The notes beneath the pieces are model-generated. The model had not been told where the DNA came from. It made no database searches and worked only from the letters and a program-made list of their open reading frames with translations. Both the position numbers and the translations under genes were made by a program. Source: Terriglobales bacterium (GTDB taxonomy: Bacteria > Acidobacteriota > Terriglobia > Terriglobales > Acidobacteriaceae). From it: a stretch of 64,000 nt of DNA. Position 1 is the stretch's first letter; each line of letters begins with the position of its first letter. Below are positions 29,741-54,761 of this stretch, in pieces. The stretch spans positions 1,223 to 65,222 of the forward strand of contig DATAPL010000054.1 in the NCBI GenBank assembly GCA_036265205.1. The letters are read 5' to 3'.

Positions 29741-29747
29741 ATTCTCC

Positions 29748-36161: not shown

Positions 36162-36172
36162 CTCGACGACGA

Positions 36173-38797: not shown

Positions 38798-38861
38798 GGG
38801 GCTCCTGACAGGTTGGGCCTTACAGCGGGGGGAGAGTACTCGATTTTAGAGAGCTGAAACT

Positions 38862-39374
38862 TCAGAGTGCTTCAACATCGTAGCCTTCGACGCGCACCGC
38901 TAAGGACCGTTGAATCGCATCCACCGAGATAATCAGAGTGCGGTCTCCGTTGCGCGACAGCAACACGCCTTCCACGCCCTCGAGCGAACCGCTGCGGATG
39001 CGCACTCGTTGTCCAACTTTTAAAAAGGGATGTTCTGACCAGGGAACTTGTTCGGACACGATCATGCGCAGCGCGTCGATCTGCTCGTCAGGAATGGGAA
39101 TGGCTTCCCCGTGCATGCTGACGATGCGAAACACCCCGTTGGTGCGGTAGACGCGCAGGCGTTCGTCATTGTTGCTGGCTGTGAGCTTCACGAAAACATA
39201 GCAACTGAATAATGGGAGCTCTACTTTCTTCTTGCGATCGCTCCAACGCCTCACTTCGGTGATCAGCGGCAGGAAAGTATTCAAGCCTTGTTCCTGCAGC
39301 CGCTCGGCAATCACTTTTTCGCTTCGGGCACGAGTCTGCACCGCGTACCACTTTGCCGCTTCCTGGTTCATCAT
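38862..39374 (-). CDS. NusG-paralog transcription antiterminator (RfaH/UpxY/LoaP-like)
   Basis: NGN domain WYAVQTRARSEKVIAERLQEQGLNTFLPL...LFSCYVFVKL plus KOW KVGQRVRIRSGSLEGVEGVLL. ATG-ATG at 39374. The track ORF extends to a TTG at 39512. Confidence 0.82.
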   Translation of the reverse strand: MMNQEAAKWYAVQTRARSEKVIAERLQEQGLNTFLPLITEVRRWSDRKKKVELPLFSCYVFVKLTASNNDERLRVYRTNGVFRIVSMHGEAIPIPDEQIDALRMIVSEQVPWSEHPFLKVGQRVRIRSGSLEGVEGVLLSRNGDRTLIISVDAIQRSLAVRVEGYDVEAL

Positions 39375-40070
39375 GGGATGCGCAACCGAAGATTGCAGAA
39401 TGTGATGATCGGTAATTATGGCTTCGCCCTCTGAGTCACAGACAGCTGACCCTTGGTCGCACAAGATGGTTTGATTCTGGGACACAGCAGGGGGGAGGGC
39501 CTGATCAATCAAAAATTACATTGTTAGAGTACTGGCAGATGCAAGGAACTGCAAGAGGCACCTCAACTCGGTAGTATTAGACTCCTCGCTATAGAAACTA
39601 AAGTACTGCCCAACTGAGCTTAGCTACCTGAGAATATCGCCCCTAATGTGGCTTTCGCACGAGGATTGTCGGCAGCGGTTCACCAGACTCGCTAAAAAGC
39701 TCATTATCAGTTACGTACACCGTCAGTTACCCGAGCTGAAATGGTCGAAATCGGGGTTTTACGCCTGGGACCTAATTTTCGTATCATTATGAGATATCGA
39801 CGCCGTTCTGAGGTAATGGTCATGGTTGCAAAGTGGTTCAACTTTTTTAATTGATTACAATTATCTGCTTACGCTAGACTCGCTTTAGATGCAGTCCGAT
39901 GCGCTTACTTGGCATCACGTTCGGCGGTCTCCCCCTTCGAACTTTTGTATCTCCCCTGCGTTCCGGAGAGTAATTTCTCCGCTTGCAAGAAACTTTGTTC
40001 TCTAAGGCTGCTTGCCGTCTGAAATCCTAGACTTGAAGTAGTCGACATGAATTTCCGCACGGAGGGATGA
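39375..40070. promoter_or_regulatory. Divergent, visibly AT-richer control region between the NusG-paralog operon (-) and the LuxR-type regulator operon (+)
   Basis: About 700 bp with no convincing ORF and noticeably lower GC than the flanks. One possible sigma70-like pair for the plus strand: TTGATT (39851-39856), 18 nt, TAGACT (39875-39880). No promoter was confirmed. Confidence 0.5.
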
Positions 40071-40883: not shown

Positions 40884-41131
40884 GCGCCGCTCTCGCGGTA
40901 AATCTCGAAAAAATTGGATCTTTCAAAATACTTTTGGCGGCGGTCGCCCTGCATGCACCGATCTGAGAGCAAATGCACGGATGTTATAATTTCGCATCCC
41001 CCCGAGGAGCTTGACATGCAAATTTCCAGATACCTTACTGGCTGGGACAGATGTGCCCAGTGAGGCTCCGGTCGCTGCCAAAGGCTGTTCTAAGGGGTGC
41101 CGCCGATCGGCTTTCCCAGCAATGGGATCGG

Positions 41132-42262
41132 ATGAAGTTGTCTGGGCTTTACACACGGCCTCACACCAACCTCGATCCGGATCTGCATCTTCAAGAGTCC
41201 ATCAACTGGCTTAAGCGCGCGCAGGATTCCGGAACCGACCGGGGAGTTTCCTACGGCACCCGCTTCGGGCAGAAGTTTCAGCCCAGCTATCCCGAAACCA
41301 CTGGCTACATCATTTGCACCTTTCTCGAACTCTCGAGAACCCTGAAGATTCCCGAATATCTTGACCGCGCCATCGAGATGGGCCTTTGGGAAATCGCCGT
41401 CCAGATGGAGAGCGGCGCGGTAATGGGCGGCCAAGTCAACCGCAATCCTAGTCCAGCCGTATTCAATACCGGACAGGTCCTGCTGGGCTGGGCGTCTTTA
41501 TACAGGGCGACGGGTGACGAGCGCTTTGCCCGGGCGGGTGAACGCGCGTGCGCCTGGCTGATGTCGGTGCAGGAGCCCAGCGGCCACTGGATTCGCGGCA
41601 ATTCCAATTACGCCGCCAAGGGCGCCACCCTCTATAACGTCAAGGCCGCGTGGGGGCTGGGAGAGCTGGCGCAAGCTATCGGCAGTGATGAAGGGGTGCA
41701 GGCGGCCGTGCGCAATGCCGAGTACACTCAGGCTCAACAGGCTGAGAATGGGTGGTTCCCCAATTGCTGTCTATCCGATCCCGAAAGACCGCTGCTTCAC
41801 ACGATCGCGTACACGATGCAGGGCCTTATGGGTATCGGTTTGCTTAGCGACCGGCAGGATTTCATCGACTCCGCGGCGCGCATGGCGGACCAGCTCTTGC
41901 GCCTGATGGATGGGCAAGGATTTATTCCTGGCCGCATCAACCGTTCGATGGCCGGAACCGTAAGTTGGTGTTGCCTGACCGGAACCGCGCAAACTTCCAT
42001 CGTCTGGTCGCAGCTGTACGAGCGCACCGGGGGGGATAAATATCGCGAGGCGGTGCAACGGGCTAACCGTTATCTGATGGCACGCCACGACATTGCCAGT
42101 CCCGATCCCGCGATTCGAGGCGGCCTGGCGGGATCCTGGCCAGTCTGGGGCGGTTATTGCCCGTTCATGATTCCCAACTGGGCAACCAAGTTTTTTGTCG
42201 ACGCACTGCTCGCGGAGCAGCGGACCACCGCCCCCACCACGGCAGGCCGGATCAATGCTTGA
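41132..42262 (+). CDS. Alpha/alpha-toroid protein with squalene-cyclase/prenyltransferase-type QW repeats, function unknown
   Basis: RACAWLMSVQEPSGHW fits the QW motif [KR][AG]xx[FYW][LIV]xxxQxxxGxW. Weaker copies: INWLKRAQDSG, AEYTQAQQAENGW. The ATG at 41132 is preferred over the track start at 41051. Confidence 0.6.
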   Translation: MKLSGLYTRPHTNLDPDLHLQESINWLKRAQDSGTDRGVSYGTRFGQKFQPSYPETTGYIICTFLELSRTLKIPEYLDRAIEMGLWEIAVQMESGAVMGGQVNRNPSPAVFNTGQVLLGWASLYRATGDERFARAGERACAWLMSVQEPSGHWIRGNSNYAAKGATLYNVKAAWGLGELAQAIGSDEGVQAAVRNAEYTQAQQAENGWFPNCCLSDPERPLLHTIAYTMQGLMGIGLLSDRQDFIDSAARMADQLLRLMDGQGFIPGRINRSMAGTVSWCCLTGTAQTSIVWSQLYERTGGDKYREAVQRANRYLMARHDIASPDPAIRGGLAGSWPVWGGYCPFMIPNWATKFFVDALLAEQRTTAPTTAGRINA

Positions 42263-43121
42263 CTGGTTACCCAAAAATGTAAAGTCCCGGCTGCGCCAAT
42301 ACTATTACGGGACCAGGTCCGCCTACCTGCGCTGGCGTCATCCCTTTTCCGCGGACGACTTGCTTTCGGCTCTGCGCAGGCTTGGCGTCGCTGAAGGCGA
42401 TGTAATCCTGGTGCACAGCGCGTTTGCCGAGTTCGTAGGTTTCGAAGGCGGCGCGCCGGATGTAATCCGGGTGCTGAAAGATGCGGTCGGTGCCAGCGGA
42501 ACGGTCATGATGCCGACCCTGTCGTTTTCAGGAACCGCAGTAGCCTACGCCCGCGAGGCAAAAGTATTTGATCCCAGGAAGACTCCGTCGCAGGTCGGGT
42601 TGCTGACCGAAGTGTTTCGCCGCTCGAAAGGCGTAACCCGCAGCCTGCATCCCACGCACTCGGTCGCTATATTCAGCACGGAGGCTGATTACTTTGTGAA
42701 AGATCACCATCTCGCCGGCACGCCTTGCGGAAAAGGAACACCTTTCTTTCGTCTTTTCGAAAAGAATGGAAAAGTCTTGCTGCTGGGGGTGGGAGTGGCT
42801 GCAGTCACATTTTTCCATTGTGTGGAAGAACTGGTCGAGCCCGATCTTCCCTTTTCACCCTTCACGTCCGAGGTGTTCAGCATGCAGTGCATCGTGGATG
42901 GAAAAATTGTTGAGACCGCGCCGATGCGCTTGTACGATCCCGGCGTGTCCGGGCGGCGAGACCTGAGTATCCTCGAAAACGCGCTGCGGAAAAAGGGCGT
43001 GTGGCACCAGGAAAAGGTAGGCAATCTAAAACTTATTGCGCTGAAAGCCGCAGACATCTTGTCCACCACCAGAGAATTGGCGAAGCAGGGAGTTTACTGC
43101 TACCGCAAAGCCGATGCGTGA
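42255..43121 (+). CDS. AAC(3)-fold (Antibiotic_NAT family) N-acyltransferase
   Basis: LRRLGVAEGDVILVHSAF...GTVMMPTLSF...FDPRKTPSQVGLLTEVFR...RSLHPTHSVA...LLLGVG...TFFHCVEE are family blocks. The ATG overlaps the upstream stop by 8 nt. Confidence 0.8.
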   Translation: MLDWLPKNVKSRLRQYYYGTRSAYLRWRHPFSADDLLSALRRLGVAEGDVILVHSAFAEFVGFEGGAPDVIRVLKDAVGASGTVMMPTLSFSGTAVAYAREAKVFDPRKTPSQVGLLTEVFRRSKGVTRSLHPTHSVAIFSTEADYFVKDHHLAGTPCGKGTPFFRLFEKNGKVLLLGVGVAAVTFFHCVEELVEPDLPFSPFTSEVFSMQCIVDGKIVETAPMRLYDPGVSGRRDLSILENALRKKGVWHQEKVGNLKLIALKAADILSTTRELAKQGVYCYRKADA

Positions 43122-43127
43122 GCCTCC

Positions 43128-44849
43128 ATGAAACTGATTGAAGCTCTGCAAATTGCGAACACTGAGGCAGCGTCCCCGGATGGCTCCTGCGTTGCGGCTC
43201 TCTGCTGCGGCTTCACTCCGCTGCATCTCAAGACATTTGTGGCCGCCTACTTTCGTCGATCTTTTCCCGCGCGGGCGGTCAAGGTCAAGACCGGGTTGTA
43301 CGGCGATCTGGCGGGAACCATTGAAAACTTAGATACGAAAGTCGATTTTGTGCTGGTTGCTATCGAATGGCCCGACCTGGACGCGCGTTTAGGTTTGCGC
43401 ACCACCGGGAACTGGGGACCTGCGAGTCTGGCGCAGATCGTCACCGACGCGCAGGCGCAGTTGCTCAGGCTGCAATCAGCCATCGAAGCCGTGGCATCGC
43501 GGCCGGTTCCAGTCGTGATCTGCCCGCCGACGCTGCCTTTTCCTCCTGTATTTTTTAGCCGTCCCAACGAAGCAGACTCTCTGCAGCTGAATCTGAGAAG
43601 ATTATGGAATAATTTTGCGGCGCAACTGTCCGATCACGCCTCGATTGCATTGGTAAATCCGCAGGAACTGGATCGCATTTCTCCGCCCGCCGCACGGCAC
43701 GATGCTCGCGCCGAGCTGGCCAGCGGCTTTCCTTACCAACTACCCCATACTGATGTGGTTGCGCGTCTGCTGGTTGAGTTGGCGGTTCCCAGGCTTCCCA
43801 AGAAAGGCTTGATCACCGACCTCGACGATACCGTTTGGCTCGGAATTCTCGGGGATGATGGCGTACAGGGCATTTCGTGGGATCTGGATCATCAAAGCCA
43901 GCTCCATGCCACTTACCAGCAGCTGCTGAATGCATTGGTGGAATCGGGCGTGTTGCTAGCCGTCGCGTCCAACAATGATCCGTCCCTGGTGGCAGAAGCG
44001 TTCGCGCGCGCCGACCTGGTGTTGAATCCAAAATACGTGTACCCGGTTGAGGCTTCTCGCGGTCCTAAGTCGGAAGCCATCAAGCGAATCCTGCAAGCCT
44101 GGAACGTCGCTCCGGATAGCCTGGTCTTCGTCGATGATAACCCGCTGGAACTGGCTGAGGTAGGAGCTGCCTACCCGGGCGTCGAAGGCATCCTGTTTCC
44201 CAAGCATGATCCGGCGGCGATCCTAGAATTTTTCCGCACCCTCAGAGACCGCTTCGGGAAAAGGCGCATCCACGATGAGGATCGAGAGCGTCTTGCCAGC
44301 CTGCGTCAATCGCGGGAATTTCACGAAACCGTTCACGGCGCGGGAACCCTGGACAGCGTATTGCAAGGCGCCGAAGGGCGGATCAAATTTACCTACGACA
44401 AAATCCCGGTCGATTCCCGAGCGCTCGAGCTCATCAACAAGACCAACCAGTTCAACCTGAATGCCAGGCGCTACACCGAAGCGTCGTGGTCGTCCCTACT
44501 TTCCCAGGACAATTGTTGGCTGCAAATTGCGGAATATGAAGACCGCTTCGCGCGCCTGGGAAAAATATCGGTGATTGGCGGCTACCGCGAAGGAAACCGG
44601 CTGGCCGTCAGCACCTGGGTCATGAGTTGCCGTGCTTTTTCGCGGCGCATCGAATATCACTGCCTGCGCGAGCTGCTGGAACACTTCGACGCAACTGAAA
44701 TCGAATTCGACTTTATTCCAACCGAGCGCAACGGCCCGGTGCGAGATTTCCTGGCTGCGCTGACCGGCAAGCTTCCCGAATCCGCGACGGCGATAACCGC
44801 CGAGCTCTTTCGGGAAAAGTGTCCGCCCCTTTATCATCAGAAAAAATAA
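43128..44849 (+). CDS. FkbH-like HAD-IIIC family protein (candidate glyceryl-ACP loader)
   Basis: HAD motif I ITDLDDTVWLG, then LLAVASNN and VFVDDNPLE blocks, and a C-terminal GNAT-like region. The 573-aa length is typical of stand-alone FkbH-like proteins. Confidence 0.8.
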   Translation: MKLIEALQIANTEAASPDGSCVAALCCGFTPLHLKTFVAAYFRRSFPARAVKVKTGLYGDLAGTIENLDTKVDFVLVAIEWPDLDARLGLRTTGNWGPASLAQIVTDAQAQLLRLQSAIEAVASRPVPVVICPPTLPFPPVFFSRPNEADSLQLNLRRLWNNFAAQLSDHASIALVNPQELDRISPPAARHDARAELASGFPYQLPHTDVVARLLVELAVPRLPKKGLITDLDDTVWLGILGDDGVQGISWDLDHQSQLHATYQQLLNALVESGVLLAVASNNDPSLVAEAFARADLVLNPKYVYPVEASRGPKSEAIKRILQAWNVAPDSLVFVDDNPLELAEVGAAYPGVEGILFPKHDPAAILEFFRTLRDRFGKRRIHDEDRERLASLRQSREFHETVHGAGTLDSVLQGAEGRIKFTYDKIPVDSRALELINKTNQFNLNARRYTEASWSSLLSQDNCWLQIAEYEDRFARLGKISVIGGYREGNRLAVSTWVMSCRAFSRRIEYHCLRELLEHFDATEIEFDFIPTERNGPVRDFLAALTGKLPESATAITAELFREKCPPLYHQKK

Positions 44850-44855
44850 AAAACT

Positions 44856-45095
44856 ATGGATGACAACCAGGAACGACTTGCTCGCTGCTTTCTCGCAGTT
44901 TTTCCGCGCCTTGCCAAAGCCGATGTGTTGCAGGCTTCCCAGACGTCGGTGTCAGGTTGGGACTCCGTGGCAACGGTGACGTTGCTGACGACCGTAGAAG
45001 AGGAATTCGGAATTCAAGTCGATCTCGAGAACCTGGATCAACTTACTTCATTCGACTCAATACTCAGATATGTCAAGGGCGCGCTCGGACAATAG
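44856..45095 (+). CDS. Acyl carrier protein
   Basis: 79 aa. Phosphopantetheine-attachment motif GWDSVATVTLL. Lies 6 nt after the FkbH-like gene. Confidence 0.8.
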   Translation: MDDNQERLARCFLAVFPRLAKADVLQASQTSVSGWDSVATVTLLTTVEEEFGIQVDLENLDQLTSFDSILRYVKGALGQ

Positions 45096-45139
45096 TCGCC
45101 TTGCTCAAGGCTTGAAAGCGGAACACATGACAAGACTAC

Positions 45140-45955
45140 TCATTTGCTGTGGGCGGAATATTTCCCGCTGATTGCATTCCAGCGAATCTTCAGCATCTCC
45201 AGAAACATCCTGGTACCGTCGCGCAACGGGCTGATGCGAGTGCCTTCGGCGTGCGCCCAGGCTACCGGCACTTCGACCACTTTCAGGTGGAATTTTTTTG
45301 CCAAGTAGAGCAGCTCCGGATCGAAGCCCCAACGCTCGATTCTCTGGCGGGGAAAAATTGTCTGCGCAGCCCGTCGGGTAAAGGCCTTGAATCCGCACTG
45401 TGTATCTTTAAAGCGCAAACCCAAAATGATGCGAAGCAGCAGGTTGAAGACGCGGCCGAAAAGCTGGCGATAAAGCGGCTGGCGCTGGGTTTGCAGATCG
45501 CTGCGCAGCCAGCGTGAACCGATGGCAATGTCGGCCCCGGCATGGAGGGCGGCTAGTAATTTCTCGGCTTCTTCGATGGGAGACGAAAGATCGGCGTCAC
45601 TAAAGAGCAAGGTCTCGCCGTGCGCGTGCAGCATCCCGTTGCGCACGCTGTATCCTTTGCCCCGGTTGCCGGGGTTTTCCAGAAGATGCAGTCGCGGGTT
45701 CTTCTCGGCGTAGCCGCGGATGATGTCAGATGTGTTATCCCGCGAACCGTCGTTTACCGCGATGACTTCAGCGTCCCAGCCGCGCTCCGCGACGTAGGCG
45801 AGAACTCTTTCCAGAGTGGCGCCCACTCGGGCGCCTTCGTTGTAAGCGGGAATGACGATGCTGTAGGCCGGTTTGCGGTCTGGAGGCGTCAGTCTTTGTT
45901 CCGCCAATCCTGGCTCCGCCAGTCGCTGCTCGCTCAGTTTTTGGTCCAAGGACAT
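45140..45955 (-). CDS. GT2 polyprenyl-phosphate hexose synthase (dolichyl-phosphate beta-glucosyltransferase/GtrB-like)
   Basis: YSIVIPAYNEGARVGATLERVL...VIAVNDGSRDNT...NRGKGYSVRNG...LFSDADLSSP is typical of the Dol-P-Glc/Und-P-Glc synthase subgroup. 271 aa, soluble-size. Confidence 0.8.
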   Translation of the reverse strand: MSLDQKLSEQRLAEPGLAEQRLTPPDRKPAYSIVIPAYNEGARVGATLERVLAYVAERGWDAEVIAVNDGSRDNTSDIIRGYAEKNPRLHLLENPGNRGKGYSVRNGMLHAHGETLLFSDADLSSPIEEAEKLLAALHAGADIAIGSRWLRSDLQTQRQPLYRQLFGRVFNLLLRIILGLRFKDTQCGFKAFTRRAAQTIFPRQRIERWGFDPELLYLAKKFHLKVVEVPVAWAHAEGTRISPLRDGTRMFLEMLKIRWNAISGKYSAHSK

Positions 45956-46007: not shown

Positions 46008-49000
46008 TTACTGAACGGTGAGCGTTAGCCCAGCAGTGTGGGTCAGCGATGCCGACGTTCCGGTGACCGTGACAGTGTATGCTCCGGCCGGCGTGCCAGG
46101 AACTGTCGTGCCACCCCCGCCCGAGGACGAGCTGCCACCGCATGCCGCCATGAAGATCAGCCCTGAAAACAGCAGGCATCCCAGCAGGAAGCCCAGCCAT
46201 CGTTTCTTGCGGGATGTGAATCCGGCTCCTACCAAAGCCAGCCCGCCCACCGGCAGCCACATTGCATAGAAAACACCTTTGAAGTGGGGCACGAGCGAAG
46301 CAGTGGTTGAAGCCGTAGTCTTTACCGTCAGGGTGGACGTGCCCGACCCGCCGGCCACAGAAGTGGGACTGAAGGTACATGTTGGCTGCTTCGCCGCGGC
46401 TGGAGTCACGGTGCAGGACAAGCTCACGGCGCTGTTGAATCCGTTGGCCGGGGTGATCGTGATTGTAGACGTGGCCATTCCGCCCTTTGCAACTGAAGCC
46501 GGCGTGAGGGCGGTGGCAGCAATCGTAAAATCAGGAACGGGAGCCGGCGTAACCGTTACATGGACTGTGGTGCTGTGGTTCGTCGAGCCTGCGCCCGCGA
46601 CCGTCACGGTGTAGGCGTTGGCCGGTGTAGTCGCAGAAGTGGTGACTGTCAGGACCGATGTGCCCGAACCTCCCGCAACCGAAGGCGGAACAAAGGCGCA
46701 CGTCGGAGCCGGCGTTACTACAGGAGTAATGCTGCTGCAGGACAGCGCGACTGTGCCGGTGAAGCTGTTGAGAGGAGCGATGGTGATGGTTGAAGTAGCG
46801 GTTCCGCCCGCTACAATCGAAGCCGGTGCAAGGGCAGAGGCCGCGATAGTGAAATCCGGCGCCGGAGGAGGCGCATTCACGGTCAGCCCGACCGAGGTGT
46901 TATGGGTTAACAGTCCGGCTGTGCCGGTCACAGTCACACTGGAAGTGGCTGCCGGAGTTGTAGTGTCAGTGTTGATAGTCAGCGTTGATGGAGTTCCGGG
47001 CGTCACCGACGCGGGGACAAAGTCACACGTGGCGCCGCTGGGCAGACTGGCTCCGTTGCAGGTCAGGGTCACTGAGCCGGTGAAGCCGTTCAGCGCGCTG
47101 ACTGACACGGTATAAGATGCCGGGCTCCCGGCAGTCACGGTCCGGCTGGCCGGGAGCGCGCTGATGCCGAAATCCTGCGTCAGCTTGAAAGCTGCGACCT
47201 GCATTACATAGTTAGCGCTGCCGAAAATAGGAGTAGTGGCTTCGCAACTACCCGCCACCGTTGTGATCTGGTGCTCAGCGTTATCGCCGTTAGGCTGGGT
47301 CAATGCCAGCAGGTTGAAGCCTGATCCGGCGCCAGTGACATGCGTCCCCACAGTTGCGCCGGCCACGATCAGTTCTACCGGCGTGGCGGTGGTGCAAGCG
47401 CCGGTGTCAGCCAGGCTTCCGCTGCCCGCATTCCCCGCTGTGGCGTCCAGAGGACTGATGGGATCGAGCCCGCTGTATTCCAGAATCCTCATATCGGGCG
47501 CAAGCGCCGGCTGATTGAAGGTGGCTGTGATCTGGTTGGGAGTGGTGGTGTCACCCACGATGTTCTTGGCGTAGTAAATCACCTGCGTAAATCCCGTTCC
47601 GGCTAGCGCAGTGCCGGCAACGGTATAAGTATTTCCCTCGGTGTCGGTGACTGCTGTGACGTTTGCAGTAGCATCCGCCCAGCCGATAATGACCACATTC
47701 AGATTGCCCGCATGCTGCAGGCTGGTCATCTGCTGGGACGCAGTTCCCACTAGGTTAGGCGTAGCCGAGACCGCGCCTTGAATGTAGTTGATCGGCCCGG
47801 TTCCCAGGGCAAACGTATAAGCGCCCGGACCGCTCACCGTGCCTCCGTCGGGATTAGTGACAGTAACATCGGCCGGTCCCACCGGAAGTCCGGGAGTGAT
47901 GGCGGTGATGGTGGTGGCATTCTGTACTACTACGTTATTGGCAGGAAGTCCCCCGACCGCGACCGTGGCTCCGTTTTGAAAGTTGGTGCCGGTAACTGTG
48001 ATGGCCGCGCCGTTGGTCGGACCTGTCGTCGGATTCACCGCAGTAAAGGTGGGCGGGATCACTGGCACGAATGTGTACGCCCCAGCAGCTGAGGATAACT
48101 GGCCATCCACGTTGACTACCGTGACGTCCACGGCGCCGTCGCTGTCAGGCGGCGTGAGACAGGTGATGGTGGCTCCGGCGGCCTCTGTGCAATTCACGCC
48201 GGAAATACCTCCGGGAGCGGTGCCAAACAAAACCACCGCGCCCGGCTGAAAATTGGTTCCGGTGATGGTAACTGGGGTGCCGCCGCTATCTGGTCCGGAA
48301 GCAGGCGCAATCGGAGTAACCGTGTCAATAACTGGCGCGGTGAACGTGACTGGAGTGGTGCTGAACGCCGCGACCTGCATTACCCAGTTCCCGTCGGTTA
48401 ATACGCCGGTCGCATTGTACGTGCCTGCGACCTGCGCTGCGTTGGAATCTTCCACAATGTCGCCGAACGGAAGCGTAATCGAGCGCGAGGTGAATCCGCT
48501 ACCAGCCGCCGTGAAATGCGCGTCGGTTGTTCCGGCTCCCACCAGCAGATCGCTGGCGGTTGTGGTTACGGAACCGCTGTCAGCGAGAGTAGAAGCACCG
48601 ACACCTCCGCCCCAAATATCGAGCGGCGAGGTAGCACTCAGCCCGCTGTATTCGAGGATGCGAACATCGGGATGGGCTGCGGCCTGGTTGAAATTGACCG
48701 TAACTACGGGCGTGGTGCTGTTAGGCAGAACAATATTGCGGGCGTAGTAGATCGCCTGCTTCACGCCATTACCGGCGGTCGTGCCAGCCAGCACGTAAAC
48801 GTTGGTATTGTCATCCACCACCGAAGTCACCGACGCCGTGGTATCGCTCCAACCGACGATCACAACGTTCAAATCTCCGGCCGTCTCAGCGGTCGGGTAA
48901 GTCACGTTCATGGTGGCAGTAACTGCATCGACGGTGTTGTTGTTTACCTGGACAAAGGTCTGGGCCTGTGACAGTGCAGACAAGAGCAGCAGGGCCGCCA

Positions 49001-49088
49001 ACGGCGCAACCCTCCGAAGAAAGCTGGTCAGACAGGAAGAAACCGACTTCAGGGCCTGGGGCAACACCGAACTACTGGTCATCACCAA
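46008..49088 (-). CDS. Large Thr/Ser-rich secreted surface protein: duplicated about 200-aa unknown domain, two IPT/TIG domains, three Ig-like repeats, C-terminal hairpin module
   Basis: Signal peptide ...RRVAPLAALLLLSALSQA. Two IPT-like units (SGPDSGGTPVTITGTNF..., TGPTNGAAITVTGTNF...). Three repeats of the pattern DF-I-A...C...C-F-P-SV...LTV-T...YTVTV-G...H-T-V-VTV. See findings. Confidence 0.85.
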   Translation of the reverse strand: MVMTSSSVLPQALKSVSSCLTSFLRRVAPLAALLLLSALSQAQTFVQVNNNTVDAVTATMNVTYPTAETAGDLNVVIVGWSDTTASVTSVVDDNTNVYVLAGTTAGNGVKQAIYYARNIVLPNSTTPVVTVNFNQAAAHPDVRILEYSGLSATSPLDIWGGGVGASTLADSGSVTTTASDLLVGAGTTDAHFTAAGSGFTSRSITLPFGDIVEDSNAAQVAGTYNATGVLTDGNWVMQVAAFSTTPVTFTAPVIDTVTPIAPASGPDSGGTPVTITGTNFQPGAVVLFGTAPGGISGVNCTEAAGATITCLTPPDSDGAVDVTVVNVDGQLSSAAGAYTFVPVIPPTFTAVNPTTGPTNGAAITVTGTNFQNGATVAVGGLPANNVVVQNATTITAITPGLPVGPADVTVTNPDGGTVSGPGAYTFALGTGPINYIQGAVSATPNLVGTASQQMTSLQHAGNLNVVIIGWADATANVTAVTDTEGNTYTVAGTALAGTGFTQVIYYAKNIVGDTTTPNQITATFNQPALAPDMRILEYSGLDPISPLDATAGNAGSGSLADTGACTTATPVELIVAGATVGTHVTGAGSGFNLLALTQPNGDNAEHQITTVAGSCEATTPIFGSANYVMQVAAFKLTQDFGISALPASRTVTAGSPASYTVSVSALNGFTGSVTLTCNGASLPSGATCDFVPASVTPGTPSTLTINTDTTTPAATSSVTVTGTAGLLTHNTSVGLTVNAPPPAPDFTIAASALAPASIVAGGTATSTITIAPLNSFTGTVALSCSSITPVVTPAPTCAFVPPSVAGGSGTSVLTVTTSATTPANAYTVTVAGAGSTNHSTTVHVTVTPAPVPDFTIAATALTPASVAKGGMATSTITITPANGFNSAVSLSCTVTPAAAKQPTCTFSPTSVAGGSGTSTLTVKTTASTTASLVPHFKGVFYAMWLPVGGLALVGAGFTSRKKRWLGFLLGCLLFSGLIFMAACGGSSSSGGGGTTVPGTPAGAYTVTVTGTSASLTHTAGLTLTVQ

Positions 49089-49564: not shown

Positions 49565-51226
49565 ATGTCACAAATAAATTGCGCACCTCCCCCACCGGAT
49601 CGCTTTTCGATTCGGAACCGCAGCATTGCGGACATCCTGCTCTTCCTCGTGGCTTTCGCCACCGGCGGCTCGTTTGCGCAGAACACGGTAAATGTTTTCG
49701 GCGCCAGTACTCCTGTAGTGGTCGACAGCGGAAATCCCAGTTCCATTCTGCTGGGCGTCAGAGTTTTCTCCGACGTTGCGGGACAGGTCGTAGGCTGCAC
49801 CTTCTACAAAGCATCGACCAACATCGGGCCGCACGTGGTCAGCCTGTGGGACTCAGCTGGAAAATTATTGGCCAGCCAAACCACTACGACCGAGACTGAC
49901 TCGGGAGTGCAAGCGGTGCGATTTGCAACACCCATCCCGATGGCTGCAAACCAAACCTTTACCTGCGGGTACTACACGGCTCACGGTCACTATTCGAATG
50001 ACCGGAATGTCTTCACCGTGCAAAAGAATGTCCCTCCCCTGCACGTTCCGATCAATGGTGGAGTATATCTGTACGGCACCTCTGCCACCGCCTTCCCGAG
50101 CACGATCTATCTGGCGAGTAATTACTGGGTCGACGTGTTGTTCGCTCCCGCTGGCGGATCAACCTCGGCAACCTGGATCAGCGGCACCAGCGCCAGCGCG
50201 ACTGGAAGCACCGCCAACATCAGCTGGAATACGGTGGTGCCATCCGATTCGCAAGTCGAATATGGATCGAACACGTCGTACGGCAGCAGCACGACGCTGG
50301 CGGCGACGAGAGTCACCGCGCACTCCGTCGCAATCACTGGCTTGTCGGAGGGAGCTACGTATCACTTCCGGGTGCGATCGAGCGATTCAGACGCCGCATT
50401 GGCAACCGGCGCGGACCATACTCTCACTACAGTCGCTGCAGTTTTGCCGGTAAGCATCTCGACCTCCCCCACAACCGCGAGCATCGCATCGGGCGCTACT
50501 CAGCAATTTATGGCGATGGTAAGCAACGCTGCGAACGCGGCGGTCACCTGGTCGGCGACTGCTGGAACCATCAATGCGTCGGGCCTGTTCACTGCGCCAA
50601 ATGTTTCCGTTCAAACCTCGGTGACCGTGACTGCCGTCAGCCAGGCTGACACCACCAAAAGCGCCTCCGCCATGCTGACCGTGAGCCCCGCGGCCGCGAT
50701 CAGCGTCAGCCCTACCAGCTTGAGCTTTGCCGGAAAAACCGGCACATCCAGTCTCACGCCGGCCAGCGTGAGCATCACAAACACCGGGGCTGGAGCGCTC
50801 ACTTTCACGGGAGTCAGCGACCAGTCCTGGCTGATGCTCTCGCCAGCGTCTGGTACGGCTCCCTCCAGCCTGCAGGTGACTCCGGCCATCACCGGGATGA
50901 AGGCTGGAACTTACACCGGACATGTCACTCTGACCGGCGGTGGCGTGTCGAAGACTGTGACTGTTGCGCTCAGCTTGACCGCGCCTGTGGTCCAGCATTC
51001 GGTGGCATTATCGTGGAAGGCCAGCACCAATACCCACGTCATCAGCTATAGCATGTACCGCTCGACCATCTCAGGCTCTTCTTACGGACTCTCAGCCAGC
51101 GCCATCAGCGGAGTCGCTTACAGCGATGCCAGCGTGCAGTCCGGAACAACCTATTATTACGTTGTTACCGCAGTGGACGAGCAGTGGACGATCAGGGACG
51201 GGAGAGCGGCTATTCGAACCAGGTAA
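49565..51226 (+). CDS. Secreted DUF4082-domain protein with Fn3/Ig-like domains; 3' end frameshifted by an 11-bp tandem duplication
   Basis: Signal peptide ...ADILLFLVAFATGGSFA. DUF4082-like block LGVRVFSDVAGQVVGCTFYK...GPHVVSLWDS...NYWVDVLF. PAP-N/Fn3-like ISWNTVVPSDSQVEYG...YHFRVRS. A terminal Fn3 ends aberrantly (see the repeat at 51170..51191). Confidence 0.8.
   Translation: MSQINCAPPPPDRFSIRNRSIADILLFLVAFATGGSFAQNTVNVFGASTPVVVDSGNPSSILLGVRVFSDVAGQVVGCTFYKASTNIGPHVVSLWDSAGKLLASQTTTTETDSGVQAVRFATPIPMAANQTFTCGYYTAHGHYSNDRNVFTVQKNVPPLHVPINGGVYLYGTSATAFPSTIYLASNYWVDVLFAPAGGSTSATWISGTSASATGSTANISWNTVVPSDSQVEYGSNTSYGSSTTLAATRVTAHSVAITGLSEGATYHFRVRSSDSDAALATGADHTLTTVAAVLPVSISTSPTTASIASGATQQFMAMVSNAANAAVTWSATAGTINASGLFTAPNVSVQTSVTVTAVSQADTTKSASAMLTVSPAAAISVSPTSLSFAGKTGTSSLTPASVSITNTGAGALTFTGVSDQSWLMLSPASGTAPSSLQVTPAITGMKAGTYTGHVTLTGGGVSKTVTVALSLTAPVVQHSVALSWKASTNTHVISYSMYRSTISGSSYGLSASAISGVAYSDASVQSGTTYYYVVTAVDEQWTIRDGRAAIRTR
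51170..51191 (+). repeat. Perfect 11-bp tandem duplication GCAGTGGACGA x2
   Basis: Bases 51170-51180 and 51181-51191 are identical. Removing one copy restores ...VVTAVDDQGRESGYSNQVTAIIP, with a stop (TAG) at 51241-51243. Confidence 0.95.
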
Positions 51227-51563: not shown

Positions 51564-51632
51564 AACCGCAGTCATCCTGGAAGTGAAACTGTCCGCCTTG
51601 GATTGGGGCGTCCTTGGGCGGGAGGAGTGAGT

Positions 51633-54600
51633 GTGAAAGTCACGCAATTTGTGTCTTTCAAGCGGCATCCTCTCCTGCTTCTGCTGCTTGTAGGAATTTC
51701 GACACCTGGGCTGTTGGGCCAATCGCAGACGATCGGTAAATGGACAACCATGTCCAATACCACACCGATCAACCCCATTCATGCTGCATTGATGAAGAAC
51801 GGCAAGATTCTGATTGTTGCAGGTTCGGGAAACTGCCCGCCCTCGCAATCCGGATGTCCACTGGGACCGCCATACGGCCCTTCGAACAATTCCGGCGCCG
51901 AGATCTATGATCCCGTGGCCGGTACCTTCACCCAGCTCACGGTTTCCTGGGACATGTTTTGTAACGACATGATCTCGTTGCCTGACGGGCGTATGTTCAT
52001 CAACGGCGGCAGCATCCAGTACGACCCATTTTATGGATCGCCGCAGTCGGCAATCTTCGATCCTTCAACCAATACTTTTACCAACGTTCAGAACATGGCG
52101 CACGGCCGTTGGTATCCGACGCTGGTAACGCTTGGGGACGGCCGCATCATGACTTTCTCCGGCACCGACGAAAACGGCAACACCAATACCACTGTCGAGA
52201 TTTACACCGTCGGTTCGGGTTGGGGCCAGCCTGATTCAGCCGGCTGGACGCCGCCGCTGTATCCGCGCATGCACCTCCTGCCCAATGGAAAAGTGTTCTA
52301 TTCAGGATCGGATACCAGTTCCAACATCTTCGACCCATCTTCCATGTCGTGGAACCTGAATGTGGCGAATACCATCTACGGTGGCCAGCGCACCTATGGG
52401 ACTTCGGTGCTGCTCCCTCTGACCCCGGCCAACAACTATGACCCGCAGGTCATGATTATGGGCGGGAACAATCCCGCCACCGCCACCACCGAAATAATCG
52501 ATCTGAATGCTTCGCCGCTGAAGTGGAAGTCCGGGCCCAGCATGTCGCAGCCGCGTACCCAGATGAATGCCGTGATCCTGCCGAGCGGCAAGGTTCTGGC
52601 CCTGGGGGGATCGGCGAATGATGAGGACACGGGATCGCTCAGCCTGAATGCGGACCTTTACGATCCAGCGACCAAGACATTTTCATCTGCGGGGCAGAAT
52701 GTTTATGAGCGGCTGTACCACTCGGTGGCTCTGCTTTTGCCCGATGCGACGGTATGGTTGACCGGCGGAAACCCTTCGCGCGGCACTTTCGAGCCACACA
52801 TAGAAATTTACCAGCCGGCTTATTTATTTAATTCCGGCGGTGGACTGGCTACACGCCCGACCATCAGCGGCGCACCCAGTTCGATTTCGTGGGGCAACGC
52901 GTTCACGGTCACAACACCCGATGCCGCTAACATTTCTTCGGTGGTGCTGATACGGGACGGCGCAGTAACCCACTCGTTCGGCATCGATCAGCGCATGGTC
53001 GGCATGTTGTTCACCCCAGGCAGCGGATCTCTGACAGTAACCGCGCCGCCGACCGCGAACATCGCTCCGCCCGGCTATTACATGCTGTTTATCCTCAACA
53101 ATAACGGCGTGCCCTCTGTAGCCAAGTTTGTCCAGCTAACCGCGGGGGGCGGCGGCAATCCCGCTCCGACCCTGTCCGGCGTATCGCCCGCCTCAGGCAC
53201 GACGGCGGGTGGGACTGCGGTGACCGTAAGCGGCACCGGTTTTCTGGCTGGAGCTACGCTGACATTCGGTGGCAACGCGGCGACCAATGTGACGGTAAAT
53301 AGCGGCACCAGCATCACGGCAACCACGCCGGCGCACTCGGCGGGCGCGGTGAATGTGGTAGTAACCAATACTGACAGCCAGAACGCAACCTTGTCGCAGG
53401 GCTTTACCTATACTGCAATATCGAATCCGCCGCCCACGGTAACTGCAATTTCGCCCAACTCCGCATCGACCAGTGGCGGCACCGCGGTGACCGTAACCGG
53501 CACGGGCTTCCTCTCCGGAGCGACGCTGACTCTGGGCGGCACGGCGGCGACCAATGTGACCGTGGCAAACAGCACTACCATCACCGCCATGACCCCCGCG
53601 CATTCGGCTGGGACGGTGAACGTGGTGGTGACTAACAGCGACACTCAGAGCGGCTCTTTGCCGCAAGGTTTTACCTATACGTCGGTCTCCAATCCGCCTC
53701 CAACCGTGACTGCAATCTCGCCGATCTCAGGAACCACTGCCGGCGGGACCGCGGTAACCATCACCGGCACCGGCTTCCTGGCAGGGGACATGGTGAATCT
53801 CGGCGGGACGCTCGCCACGAATACAGCGGTAATCAGCAGCACCACGATGACAGCCACAACTCCGGCGCACTCCGCCGGCGCGGTGAGCGTAGTTGTCACC
53901 AACGCAGAAGAACAAAACGGCACGTTGCCGAACGGCTTCACCTATATCCAGCCCACTCCTGCGCCTGCGATCGCTTCCATCGCGCCCAACAGCGGAACTT
54001 CGAGCGGCGGCACAGCCGTTACCGTGACCGGCACCGGCTTCCTGACGGGAGCGGCTTTGACGATGGGTGGCACTGCGGCCAGTGGTGTAACCGTCCTGAA
54101 CAGCACCACGATCACAGCAACAACCCCGGCACACGCCGCTGGCGTCGTAAGTGTGACGGTGACTAACACCGACAACCAGAGCGGAAATCTGGCCAACGGC
54201 TATACCTATACTTCCACTCCGCCTCCAGGGCTGGGCTTCGGCGTGCCATCGGGGGATCCCAGCGCGGCGACTGTGAGTGCGGGGCAAACCGCGTCTTACA
54301 TTCTTTCTATTGGCGGCGCGGGACTGAGCGGAACCGCTACGTTCAGCTGTACCGGTGCGCCCTTAGGGTCAAAGTGCACGGTGCCGGCCACCCAGCAATT
54401 TAGCGCAACCGCCGCGTCGACCCTCAATGTCAGCGTGACCACCACGTCACGAACCATAGGGGCGCTCCAAATACCGGCTTTCACCCCGGCGACCTGGCTG
54501 TGGACGTTCACCATCGTAGGAATGACATTGCTCCCTGGAGTGCGCGTTTCCCGGCGGTCAGCGCGGCGATTTCTGTGGCTTGCCCCTCTGGCTCTGACGT

Positions 54601-54761
54601 TCTTCCTGGTTTCGTGCGGCGGCGGCGCAAGCAGCGGGAGCGGTGGCGGCAGTCAGCAGCCCAATCCGAACGGAACTCCGGCCGGAACTTATACTCTCAA
54701 CGTGCAGGCGACAGCAGGCGGCGCGACGCAAAATACCTCGCTTACACTAAACGTGCAGTAA
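51633..54761 (+). CDS. Copper radical oxidase (glyoxal/galactose oxidase-like) fused to four IPT/TIG domains, a split Ig-like domain and a membrane hairpin
   Basis: The GTG at 51633 follows GGAGGAG and gives the same N-terminal length as the paralog at 1..779. Putative Cu/cofactor residues lie in MFCND, GRWYPT, LYHS and VTHSF. Four repeats of about 89 aa are SP-SG-T-GGTAVT-TGTGF... The track ORF starts at a TTG at 51603. Confidence 0.85.
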   Translation: MKVTQFVSFKRHPLLLLLLVGISTPGLLGQSQTIGKWTTMSNTTPINPIHAALMKNGKILIVAGSGNCPPSQSGCPLGPPYGPSNNSGAEIYDPVAGTFTQLTVSWDMFCNDMISLPDGRMFINGGSIQYDPFYGSPQSAIFDPSTNTFTNVQNMAHGRWYPTLVTLGDGRIMTFSGTDENGNTNTTVEIYTVGSGWGQPDSAGWTPPLYPRMHLLPNGKVFYSGSDTSSNIFDPSSMSWNLNVANTIYGGQRTYGTSVLLPLTPANNYDPQVMIMGGNNPATATTEIIDLNASPLKWKSGPSMSQPRTQMNAVILPSGKVLALGGSANDEDTGSLSLNADLYDPATKTFSSAGQNVYERLYHSVALLLPDATVWLTGGNPSRGTFEPHIEIYQPAYLFNSGGGLATRPTISGAPSSISWGNAFTVTTPDAANISSVVLIRDGAVTHSFGIDQRMVGMLFTPGSGSLTVTAPPTANIAPPGYYMLFILNNNGVPSVAKFVQLTAGGGGNPAPTLSGVSPASGTTAGGTAVTVSGTGFLAGATLTFGGNAATNVTVNSGTSITATTPAHSAGAVNVVVTNTDSQNATLSQGFTYTAISNPPPTVTAISPNSASTSGGTAVTVTGTGFLSGATLTLGGTAATNVTVANSTTITAMTPAHSAGTVNVVVTNSDTQSGSLPQGFTYTSVSNPPPTVTAISPISGTTAGGTAVTITGTGFLAGDMVNLGGTLATNTAVISSTTMTATTPAHSAGAVSVVVTNAEEQNGTLPNGFTYIQPTPAPAIASIAPNSGTSSGGTAVTVTGTGFLTGAALTMGGTAASGVTVLNSTTITATTPAHAAGVVSVTVTNTDNQSGNLANGYTYTSTPPPGLGFGVPSGDPSAATVSAGQTASYILSIGGAGLSGTATFSCTGAPLGSKCTVPATQQFSATAASTLNVSVTTTSRTIGALQIPAFTPATWLWTFTIVGMTLLPGVRVSRRSARRFLWLAPLALTFFLVSCGGGASSGSGGGSQQPNPNGTPAGTYTLNVQATAGGATQNTSLTLNVQ
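53158..54225 (+). repeat. Four tandem 267-nt (89-codon) IPT/TIG-encoding repeats
   Basis: Repeat units start near 53158, 53427, 53694 and 53958. Both protein and DNA similarity are visible by eye. Confidence 0.85.

What the first reader, a model, noticed from the sequence alone, without database searches (positions are those of the whole stretch)
46011..46295. Last Ig-like repeat of the 1026-aa surface protein is split by a two-helix hairpin containing an in-frame lipoprotein-type signal peptide
Repeats 1 and 2 (aa 639-739 and 745-848) run without interruption: ...C...C-F-P-SV...STLTV-T-(short T-rich loop)-YTVTVTG...H-T-V-VTV.

In repeat 3 a 66-aa insertion (46098..46295) sits exactly in that loop. 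It reads LVPHFKGVFYAMWLPVGGLALVGAGF-TSRKKR-WLGFLLGCLLFSGLIFMAAC-GGSSSSGGGGTTVP. The domain then resumes as GTPAGAYTVTVTGTSASLTHTAGLTLTVQ-stop.

The insertion therefore has these parts, in order:
- a hydrophobic helix
- a basic cluster
- a second hydrophobic helix ending in a lipobox-like xAAC
- a Gly/Ser linker

From RKKR onward it is indistinguishable by eye from a classical lipoprotein precursor. Three readings are possible:
1. A helical-hairpin membrane anchor that leaves both halves of the Ig domain outside the cell.
2. An undescribed C-terminal sorting or processing signal, with Lgt/Lsp cleavage releasing a tiny lipidated beta-strand tail.
3. A nested in-frame mini-lipoprotein made from an internal start. 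In-frame ATG, GTG and TTG codons lie just upstream.

I do not recognise this as PEP-CTERM, LPXTG, MYXO-CTERM, GlyGly-CTERM or a T9SS signal.
Basis: partly seen in the sequence, partly recalled or inferred. Interest (0 to 1): 0.78.

Follow-up and report, generated by a model that had tools for sequence, protein, structure and literature searches.

The report
Lipo-invert C-terminal anchor splitting Ig domain
The odd tail of this acidobacterial surface protein is real and strongly conserved, but it belongs to a family NCBI has already curated as a "lipo-invert" C-terminal anchoring domain, so it is a new example of an untested known module and not a new kind of signal.

Summary
The last Ig-like repeat of the 1026-aa protein (46008..49088, minus strand) is interrupted at 46098..46295 by a 66-aa insertion. 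In order it holds a hydrophobic helix, RKKR, a second hydrophobic helix ending in the lipobox MAAC, and a Gly/Ser linker. The last two beta-strands of the domain then follow, up to the stop codon.

It is not undescribed. The tail matches NCBIfam NF058595 ("invert_tail", lipo-invert putative C-terminal anchoring domain) at 96.5 bits against a cutoff of 37. A second protein in the window (51603..54761, plus strand) carries the same module at 70.5 bits.

The family is large: 5,598 cluster representatives at E<=1e-10. In the top hits examined the module sits at the C-terminus. Every organism named is Acidobacteriota, apart from two odd bin labels.

The lipobox Cys is invariant, and dN/dS of the module is about 0.06. 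AlphaFold2 places the terminal strands at pLDDT 92-98 in both window proteins.

The most likely mechanism is that helix 1 stops transfer, the basic loop stays in the cytoplasm, and helix 2 acts as an internal lipoprotein signal peptide. This gives a lipidated tail that completes the Ig fold.

The nested-gene reading is not supported. I found no paper and no experiment on the module.

The parts
46008..49088 (-). Gene W1: a 1026-aa exported protein. It has an N-terminal Sec-type signal peptide, a duplicated unknown domain, two TIG / choice-of-anchor Z repeats, two complete Ig-like repeats and a split third repeat that carries the invert_tail module.
   Evidence: ORF list. Pfam TIG. NCBIfam NF058595 at 96.5 bits and NF058597. 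A 95%-identical ortholog P0123 lies in the syntenic locus L045.
46296..46544 (-). N-terminal half of Ig-like repeat 3 (aa 849-931, five strands). It includes the Cys892/Cys904 pair.
   Evidence: Alignment with repeats 1 and 2. AF2 pLDDT 96-98. Both Cys columns are at least 90% conserved.
46218..46277 (-). TM1 (aa 938-957, GVFYAMWLPVGGLALVGAGF), inferred to be a stop-transfer helix running from outside to inside.
   Evidence: Best 17-residue Kyte-Doolittle window averages 1.71. AF2 helix at aa 937-955. A hydrophobic segment is present at this place in the parsed homologs.
46200..46211 (-). Basic cluster RKKR (aa 960-963). It is inferred to be a cytoplasmic loop that doubles as the n-region of the internal lipoprotein signal peptide.
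   Evidence: Loop net charge is +2 to +7 (mode +4) in 111 parsed modules.
46143..46199 (-). TM2, the h-region plus the lipobox residues M-A-A (aa 964-982).
   Evidence: 19 residues with mean Kyte-Doolittle value 2.15. Length is 15-25 (mode 19) across homologs. Position -1 is A, G or S in 110 of 111. AF2 helix at aa 960-982.
46140..46142 (-). Cys983, the lipobox cysteine and the predicted site of diacylglyceryl attachment and LspA cleavage.
   Evidence: It is the only invariant column in the 88-sequence alignments A1 and A4 and is invariant in A3.
46098..46139 (-). Gly/Ser-rich linker (aa 984-997).
   Evidence: Across homologs the linker has a median of 13 residues and is 76% Gly plus Ser. Position +2 is Gly in 100 of 111.
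46011..46097 (-). The last two beta-strands of the Ig-like domain (aa 998-1026), running to the stop codon.
   Evidence: They align with the last two strands of repeats 1 and 2. AF2 strands E154-164 and E167-177 have pLDDT 98. There are no nonsynonymous changes against L045.
51603..54761 (+). Gene W2: a 1052-aa glyoxal/galactose-oxidase-like protein with four TIG / choice-of-anchor Z repeats and the same split-Ig invert_tail module.
   Evidence: NCBIfam NF058595 at 70.5 bits and NF058597 at 121.6 bits. Pfam Glyoxal_oxid_N, GO-like_E_set and TIG x4.
54420..54758 (+). The invert_tail module of W2 (aa 940-1052). Its parts are TM1 54489-54542, basic cluster RVSRRSARR 54543-54569, TM2 54570-54614, Cys1005 54615-54617, linker 54618-54671 and tail strands 54672-54758.
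   Evidence: Coordinates. AF2 gives helices 94-108 and 119-134 and tail strands at pLDDT 92-97. dN/dS is 0.073.

Best explanation
This is a member of the lipo-invert (NCBIfam NF058595, invert_tail) family of C-terminal membrane-anchoring modules of Acidobacteriota. It is built into the last Ig-like domain of an exported protein.

The proposed mechanism has six steps. All six are inferred from sequence and none has been shown experimentally.
1. The N-terminal signal peptide sends the passenger across the inner membrane through Sec.
2. TM1 acts as a stop-transfer helix.
3. The Arg/Lys cluster stays in the cytoplasm (positive-inside rule) and also serves as the n-region of a lipoprotein signal peptide.
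4. TM2 re-inserts from inside to outside and presents a canonical lipobox at the outer face. The last ~45 residues are therefore exported as well.
5. The housekeeping enzymes Lgt, LspA and Lnt lipidate the invariant Cys and probably cut in front of it.
6. The two terminal beta-strands, tethered to the lipid by a flexible Gly/Ser linker, complete the beta-sandwich begun by the five strands before TM1.

The result is a passenger held at the membrane by a lipid at its C-terminal end. That is the mirror image of an ordinary lipoprotein, with no dedicated sortase-like enzyme needed.
For: - **Family membership.** NF058595 matches full length and ends at the C-terminus in W1 (96.5 bits), W2 (70.5 bits) and 9 of 10 diverse homologs, against a cutoff of 37.
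- **Split domain.** The insertion lies exactly in one loop of a repeat that is uninterrupted twice in the same protein. An Ig N-half precedes the module in the long representatives: 64 of 106 matched the two-Cys pattern, and the non-matching ones I read carry a Cys-less variant of the same half. AF2 gives pLDDT 92-98 for the terminal strands and the N-half in two window proteins that are 34% identical.
- **Lipobox.** Cys is invariant. Position -1 is A, G or S in 110 of 111. The h-region is 15-25 residues, the loop charge is +2 to +7, and Gly follows the Cys in 100 of 111.
- **Export of the passenger.** Both window proteins have N-terminal signal-peptide-like sequences. The Ig half has a conserved Cys pair.
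- **Selection.** dN/dS of the module is 0.055 and 0.073, with dS 0.44-0.49. The reading frame is continuous in ORFs of 860-1140 aa in independent assemblies. 110 of 120 orthologs keep the module.
- **Modularity typical of anchors.** The module is attached to FG-GAP, NHL/SBBP, lipase-like, glyoxal oxidase, TIG and Big_3_5 passengers, and to choice-of-anchor D and Z domains.
- **No dedicated enzyme.** No neighbouring gene is conserved in more than 10 of 44 loci. This fits use of the housekeeping lipoprotein pathway.
Against: - Nothing is experimental. Lipidation, cleavage, topology and cellular location are all inferred.
- I could not read the AF2 coordinates, so strand pairing rests on pLDDT and the homology alignment. 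Foldseek matches to Ig-like folds are weak (best E 2.4e-3).
- LspA cleavage would leave the passenger still attached to the TM1-loop-TM2 hairpin. It is therefore unclear what the lipid adds, or how a surface or outer-membrane location would be reached.
- In W1 the -3 lipobox residue is Met, which is not the canonical Leu/Val/Ile.
- No TM or signal-peptide predictor (DeepTMHMM, SignalP6) was available. TM1 of W2 is only moderately hydrophobic (Kyte-Doolittle 1.29).
Confidence: 0.7

Rival explanations
1. The module is a plain two-helix hairpin anchor in the inner membrane. The lipobox-like Cys is not lipidated or cleaved, and the hairpin merely loops out of an intact Ig domain.
For: Two hydrophobic helices with a positive loop between them are predicted. 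The topology puts both Ig halves outside. A hairpin alone would be enough for anchoring.
Against: A simple hairpin does not explain several conserved features. These are the invariant Cys, A/G/S at -1 in 110 of 111, Gly-Gly after the Cys, and the constant 15-25-residue spacing from the basic cluster, all while the helices themselves diverge freely.
Confidence: 0.12
2. TM1 plus the Arg cluster is a true C-terminal sorting signal, cut by an unidentified exosortase-, rhombosortase- or CPBP-type enzyme. This cut would release the passenger from the hairpin. The separately lipidated beta-hairpin tail would then remain as the only anchor, bound in trans.
For: Taken alone, TM1 plus the basic cluster gives sub-threshold hits to the TM/Arg-rich part of the LPXTG, MYXO-CTERM and PVV-CTERM models. 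Passengers look like surface or extracellular proteins. This would resolve the puzzle of why both a hairpin and a lipid are present. MYXO-CTERM is a precedent for an invariant Cys combined with an intramembrane protease (PMC11980579).
Against: No signature motif is conserved before TM1 across the family. No CTERM model reaches its cutoff. No candidate sorting enzyme recurs near the 44 loci.
Confidence: 0.13
3. A nested in-frame mini-lipoprotein is translated from an internal start inside the large gene.
For: In-frame ATG, GTG or TTG codons occur within 10 codons upstream of the basic cluster in 30 of 38 modules.
Against: Those codons are ordinary Leu/Val/Met codons of TM1 at non-conserved positions. 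Eight of 38 modules have none, and only 3 of 38 have an SD-like motif. All short database gene calls start before TM1 and look like fragments. The tail strands are homologous to the end of the very domain they interrupt.
Confidence: 0.03
4. The arrangement is an assembly or annotation artefact, in which a C-terminally anchored protein gene has been fused to a downstream lipoprotein gene.
For: A few database sequences show frameshifts in this region (P0024, P0025, P0031, P0046, P0144).
Against: The frame is continuous in most independent assemblies, in 110 of 120 orthologs and in the syntenic locus L045. The module is under strong purifying selection across the junction.
Confidence: 0.01

Closest known systems
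NCBIfam NF058595 'invert_tail' (lipo-invert putative C-terminal anchoring domain)
   Same: Both window proteins match the whole 113-position model, ending at their C-termini, well above the curated cutoff. The model spans the strand before TM1, both helices, the lipobox and the last two strands.
   Different: Nothing differs; these are members. I found no publication or experiment behind the model. I could see only the model's name, so whether its curators noted the split Ig domain is unknown.
Classical bacterial lipoprotein precursors (type II signal peptide; Lgt, LspA, Lnt)
   Same: There is a positive n-region, a 15-25-residue hydrophobic h-region, a lipobox with A/G/S at -1 and an invariant Cys, and a Gly/Ser-rich start to the mature part.
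   Different: The signal is internal, about 45 residues from the C-terminus, and follows a stop-transfer helix. The large functional part lies upstream of the cleavage site and not downstream. The 'mature lipoprotein' would be only two beta-strands.
MYXO-CTERM / myxosortase MrtX (Myxococcota; PMC11980579)
   Same: It is a lineage-restricted C-terminal tag on many surface proteins, with an invariant Cys predicted to be lipidated, a TM helix and an Arg-rich cytoplasmic stretch.
   Different: In MYXO-CTERM the Cys lies before a single TM helix and the tag ends at the Arg cluster. A dedicated CPBP protease cleaves it. Here the Cys lies after a second helix in a canonical lipobox, 43 more residues follow it, no dedicated enzyme is evident, and the MYXO-CTERM HMM is below its cutoff (16.8 against 20).
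PEP-CTERM/exosortase, LPXTG/sortase and GlyGly-CTERM/rhombosortase signals
   Same: TM1 plus the basic cluster resembles the generic 'TM helix plus Arg-rich' part of these tripartite signals. The module is attached to choice-of-anchor domains.
   Different: There is no signature motif and no HMM above its cutoff. The segment is not at the extreme C-terminus. No sorting enzyme lies nearby.
Donor-strand complementation in chaperone-usher pilins (from general knowledge)
   Same: An Ig-like fold lacking its last strand or strands is completed by a strand supplied from elsewhere.
   Different: Here the complementing strands come from the same polypeptide, or from its cleaved C-terminal fragment, and carry a lipid. 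This is an analogy only and was not tested.

Membership tests
NCBIfam NF058595 invert_tail (lipo-invert C-terminal anchoring domain) | HMM score above the curated cutoff (37 bits) | tested here: met
   W1 scores 96.5 bits. W2 scores 70.5 bits. Ortholog P0123 scores 97.8 bits.
NCBIfam NF058595 invert_tail (lipo-invert C-terminal anchoring domain) | Full-length match placed at the extreme C-terminus of the protein | tested here: met
   Profile positions 2-113 of 113 match aa 917-1026 of 1026 in W1 and aa 940-1052 of 1052 in W2.
NCBIfam NF058595 invert_tail (lipo-invert C-terminal anchoring domain) | Actual membrane anchoring through the tail | not testable with these tools
   The model name itself says 'putative'. 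I found no experimental paper.
Bacterial lipoprotein signal peptide (Lgt/LspA substrate) | Positive n-region, a hydrophobic h-region of about 7-22 residues, and a lipobox [LVI][ASTVI][GAS]C | tested here: met
   W1 reads RKKR, a 19-residue h-region and MAAC, with a non-canonical Met at -3. W2 reads RVSRRSARR, a 15-residue h-region and LVSC. Across the family, -1 is A/G/S in 110 of 111 and Cys is invariant.
Bacterial lipoprotein signal peptide (Lgt/LspA substrate) | Located at the N-terminus of the precursor | tested here: not met
   The signal is internal, at aa 960-983 of 1026, and is preceded by a passenger and a TM helix.
Bacterial lipoprotein signal peptide (Lgt/LspA substrate) | Diacylglyceryl modification of the Cys and globomycin-sensitive cleavage | not testable with these tools
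   This needs lipid labelling, mass spectrometry or globomycin treatment in a carrier strain.
PEP-CTERM, LPXTG, MYXO-CTERM, GlyGly-CTERM and other CTERM sorting signals | Signature motif and HMM score above the cutoff | tested here: not met
   Scanning the whole tail at E<=10 lists none of these models. TM1 plus the basic cluster alone gives LPXTG_anchor 14.4 (cutoff 15.9), MYXO-CTERM 16.8 (cutoff 20) and PVV-CTERM 16 (cutoff 27). These hits cover only the TM/Arg part of each model.
PEP-CTERM, LPXTG, MYXO-CTERM, GlyGly-CTERM and other CTERM sorting signals | The TM helix plus basic cluster forms the extreme C-terminus | tested here: not met
   63 residues follow the basic cluster in W1 and W2 alike.
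PEP-CTERM, LPXTG, MYXO-CTERM, GlyGly-CTERM and other CTERM sorting signals | A co-occurring dedicated sorting enzyme | tested here: inconclusive
   No neighbouring family occurs in more than 10 of 44 loci, and none looks like a sortase. Whole-genome phylogenetic profiling was not possible.
T9SS C-terminal domain | Match to a T9SS CTD model | tested here: not met
   No T9SS CTD model appears in the NCBIfam or Pfam scans of W1 or its tail.
Ig-like beta-sandwich (E-set / Big_3_5-like repeat) | A seven-strand sandwich formed from the N-half plus the two terminal strands | tested here: inconclusive
   The alignment to intact repeats is clear. AF2 predicts five plus two strands at pLDDT 92-98. Coordinates could not be inspected, and Foldseek hits to Ig-like domains are weak (E>=2.4e-3). 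PDB sequence hits are insignificant.

The most novel reading that the evidence does not exclude
After LspA cleavage the passenger and the ~45-aa triacylated peptide would be two separate chains, held together only by beta-strand complementation of the split Ig domain. A further, unidentified cut at or before TM1 would free the passenger from the hairpin. The small lipopeptide would then act as an in-trans C-terminal lipid anchor that the Lol pathway, or a surface-export route, could carry to the outer membrane with a large folded passenger attached. That would be a new way of anchoring proteins to a diderm surface without a dedicated sortase.
Probability: 0.15. Interest if true: 0.8.

Novelty: new member of a known kind. 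Interest (0 to 1): 0.4.

Why it matters
The module tags thousands of predicted extracytoplasmic proteins in soil Acidobacteriota, including oxidases, propeller proteins, lipase-like proteins and adhesin-like proteins. It appears to reuse the universal lipoprotein pathway at the wrong end of the protein.

If the mechanism holds, it would be a sortase-free route to a C-terminal lipid anchor. It would also be a natural example of a domain split by a membrane hairpin.

For annotation, it means these genes should not be split into two genes, and they should not be called plain 'Ig-like repeat proteins'.

The discovery is not new, because NCBI already curates the family. What remains open is experimental: lipidation, cleavage and localisation.

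Tried and rejected
- **Literature.** Searches for lipo-invert, invert_tail and NF058595 found nothing. Searches for internal or C-terminal lipoboxes and for acidobacterial sorting signals found nothing relevant. The hits for 'C-terminal lipobox' appear to mean the end of ordinary signal peptides.
- **Locus search.** The search for related loci with the broad alignment A1 failed for lack of a conserved stretch. The narrower A2 worked but samples only the close subfamily.
- **Exact look-up.** W1 and W2 are not in the protein collection as exact sequences. The 95%-identical P0123 was used instead.
- **Structure matches.** Foldseek against PDB gave only weak generic Ig-like matches. The PDB sequence profile gave nothing significant.
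- **Neighbour clustering.** Clustering neighbours across 44 loci found no candidate sorting enzyme.
- **Nested-gene, gene-fusion and frameshift readings.** All three were considered and rejected.
- **Membership in the CTERM families.** This was tested and not met.
- **Not possible here.** I could not inspect the AF2 coordinates for strand pairing. No TMHMM, DeepTMHMM, SignalP or LipoP was available.
Full report
**1. Observation**

The minus-strand ORF 46008..49088 encodes a 1026-aa protein. It has two Pfam TIG domains and an N-terminal signal-peptide-like sequence, RR followed by VAPLAALLLLSALS and then AQ.

I aligned its three C-terminal Ig-like repeats with MAFFT. Repeats 1 and 2 (aa 633-739 and 740-848) are uninterrupted. 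Repeat 3 (aa 849-1026) carries a 66-aa insertion, aa 932-997 = nt 46098..46295. The insertion lies exactly between the strand ...STLTVKTTAS and GTPAGAYTVTVTG...LTLTVQ-stop.

In order, the insertion holds:
- a hydrophobic helix, GVFYAMWLPVGGLALVGAGF
- the basic cluster RKKR
- a second hydrophobic stretch, WLGFLLGCLLFSGLIFMAA
- Cys983
- a Gly/Ser linker

**2. It is already curated**

Scanning NCBIfam (release 20.0) gives a full-length match of aa 917-1026 to NF058595.1 'invert_tail'. The model is described as 'lipo-invert putative C-terminal anchoring domain-containing protein'. The score is 96.5 bits against a cutoff of 37.

The protein also carries NF058597 'choice-of-anchor Z' repeats. This naming shows that NCBI's curators treat the tail as an anchor.

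I found no paper mentioning the model or its name. I found no paper on internal lipoboxes used this way. The family therefore seems to be known at the database level only.

**3. A second copy in the window**

ORF 51603..54761 (plus strand, 1052 aa) is a glyoxal/galactose-oxidase-like protein with four TIG / choice-of-anchor Z repeats. It ends in the same module, scoring 70.5 bits against NF058595:
- TM1 ATWLWTFTIVGMTLLPGV
- basic cluster RVSRRSARR
- TM2 FLWLAPLALTFFLVS
- Cys1005
- Gly/Ser linker
- GTPAGTYTLNVQ...LTLNVQ-stop

**4. Conservation**

- A search with repeat 3 returned 173 proteins. Nearly all end in the same layout.
- In an 88-sequence alignment the lipobox Cys is the only invariant column. 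The two Cys of the Ig half and the T..G.Y motif of the tail strand are at least 90% conserved.
- I parsed 111 modules:
  - The loop has a net charge of +2 to +7 (mode +4).
  - The segment from the last basic residue to the Cys is 15-25 residues (mode 19).
  - Position -1 is A, G or S in 110 of 111.
  - Position +2 is Gly in 100 of 111.
  - The predicted mature piece is 33-59 aa (median 45).
- Of 120 full-length homologs of W1, 108 match the module pattern and 2 more have it by eye.
- A profile of the module alone, searched against 1.84 billion cluster representatives, gave 15,385 hits at E<=1e-3 and 5,598 at E<=1e-10.
  - Some of these hits are driven only by repeated Ig strands.
  - Among 137 new top hits, 123 have the whole module ending at the C-terminus (2 more do by eye).
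  - Their lengths range from 94 to 2286 aa.
- An Ig N-half precedes the module in the long representatives. Of 106 tested, 64 matched the two-Cys pattern, and the non-matching ones I read carry a Cys-less variant of the same half.

**5. Reading frame and selection**

Forty-four genome loci were recovered. All are from Acidobacteriota (Terriglobia, Terriglobales, Acidobacteriaceae, Ca. Sulfotelmatobacter) apart from two oddly labelled bins. In most, the frame runs unbroken through ORFs of 860-1140 aa.

A syntenic locus with a 95%-identical ortholog (L045) gives these values:

| Region | dN/dS | dS |
|---|---|---|
| W1 module | 0.055 | 0.44 |
| W2 module | 0.073 | 0.49 |
| W1 whole protein | 0.089 | 0.30 |
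| W2 whole protein | 0.056 | 0.36 |

The tail is therefore translated in this frame and is under purifying selection. The frameshift and gene-fusion alternatives are excluded.

**6. Structure**

AlphaFold2 was run on aa 849-1026 with the 88-sequence alignment:
- Mean pLDDT is 86.
- Five strands in the N-half have pLDDT 96-98.
- Two helices (aa 937-955 and 960-982) have pLDDT 62-82.
- Two terminal strands have pLDDT 98.

The W2 tail is 34% identical to W1 and gives the same picture, with terminal strands at 92-97.

Such confidence for a terminal hairpin, together with its homology to the last two strands of the intact repeats, supports the split-domain reading. I could not open the coordinates to check strand pairing directly. 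Foldseek hits to Ig-like domains are weak, so this step remains inferred.

**7. Mechanism**

The parts fit one topology:
- The passenger is exported through the N-terminal signal peptide.
- TM1 stops transfer.
- The basic loop stays inside.
- TM2 re-inserts like a type II signal peptide.
- The lipobox Cys sits at the outer face.
- The last ~45 residues are outside, where they can complete the Ig fold.

The helices diverge freely while the Cys and the lipobox pattern stay fixed. This argues that lipidation is the selected function, and not merely a hairpin.

No neighbouring gene recurs in more than 10 of 44 loci. This fits use of the housekeeping enzymes Lgt, LspA and Lnt.

The module is attached to many kinds of extracytoplasmic passengers:
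- FG-GAP/VCBS and NHL/SBBP propellers
- lipase-like domains
- glyoxal oxidase
- TIG and Big_3_5
- choice-of-anchor D and Z domains

This is the behaviour of a sorting or anchoring tag.

One point is unexplained. LspA cleavage would leave the passenger still joined to TM1-loop-TM2, so the added value of the lipid and the final location are unclear.

**8. Rival readings**

- **Nested mini-lipoprotein.**
  - In-frame start codons before the basic cluster are ordinary Leu/Val/Met codons at varying positions.
  - They are absent in 8 of 38 modules, and an SD-like motif accompanies them in only 3 of 38.
  - All short gene calls begin before TM1 and look like fragments.
- **Known CTERM signals.**
  - None is listed for the tail at E<=10.
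  - TM1 plus the basic cluster alone gives only sub-threshold matches to the TM/Arg-rich part of LPXTG, MYXO-CTERM and PVV-CTERM.
- **Second cut by an unknown sorting enzyme.** This is not excluded, and it is the most novel reading left.

**9. Comparison with known systems**

The module works like a lipoprotein signal peptide placed after a topology-inverting helix. By HMM it is a member of NF058595.

The closest published system is MYXO-CTERM/myxosortase (PMC11980579). The two share an invariant, presumably lipidated Cys and a TM-plus-Arg layout. They differ in the order of parts, in what follows the Arg cluster, and in the need for a dedicated protease.

**10. Verdict**

The finding is real, conserved and unusual, but it was already recognised by NCBI curators. 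It is a new member of a known kind.

A cultured carrier exists: Silvibacterium dinghuense WP_129207311.1 scores 53 bits. The open questions are therefore directly testable.

Interest is moderate (0.4). The anatomy is striking and untested, but it is not a discovery.

Noticed in passing
window 51603..54761 (+): A second invert_tail protein lies about 2.5 kb from the first. It has a glyoxal/galactose-oxidase-like (GlxA-like radical copper oxidase) N-terminal domain, four TIG / choice-of-anchor Z repeats and the split-Ig tail. The pair is syntenic in locus L045.
   Followed up: yes
window 49565..51226 (+): A 553-aa protein with DUF4082, a purple-acid-phosphatase-N-like Fn3 domain and BACON_2 sits between the two invert_tail genes. 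It has no C-terminal anchor and ends abruptly after an Fn3-like 'YYYVVTAVD' motif. In the syntenic locus L045 this slot holds a methyltransferase gene instead, so the slot is variable or the gene is truncated.
   Followed up: partly
window 48350..48960 and 47170..47800 (-), aa ~45-245 and ~430-640 of W1: W1 contains a duplicated ~200-aa domain with no Pfam or NCBIfam match (motif ...NVVIVGW.D....V.SV.D..GN.Y...G.....G..Q.IYYA.NI...). The same domain forms the C-terminus of much larger glyoxal-oxidase/TIG proteins (P0208, P0218, P0221, P0238) that lack any anchor.
   Followed up: partly
window ~23800..39600 (-): The window is largely an exopolysaccharide biosynthesis and export cluster. It holds a Wza-like Poly_export/SLBB gene (36173..37306) and a Wzc-like Wzz/GNVR/P-loop kinase (33858..36161). 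It also holds a sugar transferase (26685..27557), GT4 glycosyltransferases and a DegT aminotransferase (28616..29806). A NusG paralog (38862..39512) and a sigma-54 activator (37307..38797) lie upstream.
   Followed up: partly
window 41051..45955: A small cassette lies next to W1 and is conserved in L045. It holds a squalene-cyclase/pectate-lyase-like protein, an AAC(3)-like N-acetyltransferase, an FkbH-domain HAD phosphatase, a 79-aa acyl-carrier protein and a GT2 glycosyltransferase. This suggests an acylated or glyceryl-ACP-derived sugar modification.
   Followed up: no
window 32166..33758 (-) and 25234..26595 (-): Two long ORFs (530 and 453 aa) inside the polysaccharide cluster have no Pfam match at E<=1e-6. 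They may be polymerase- or ligase-type membrane proteins.
   Followed up: no
loci L014, L020, L035: Several related loci carry two invert_tail genes within 12 kb, as the window does. This suggests local paralog clusters.
   Followed up: partly
loci L004 and L005: Two contigs carrying close relatives of the module are labelled Burkholderiales and Acidimicrobiaceae. All others are Acidobacteriota, so these are probably binning errors and not true spread outside the phylum.
   Followed up: no
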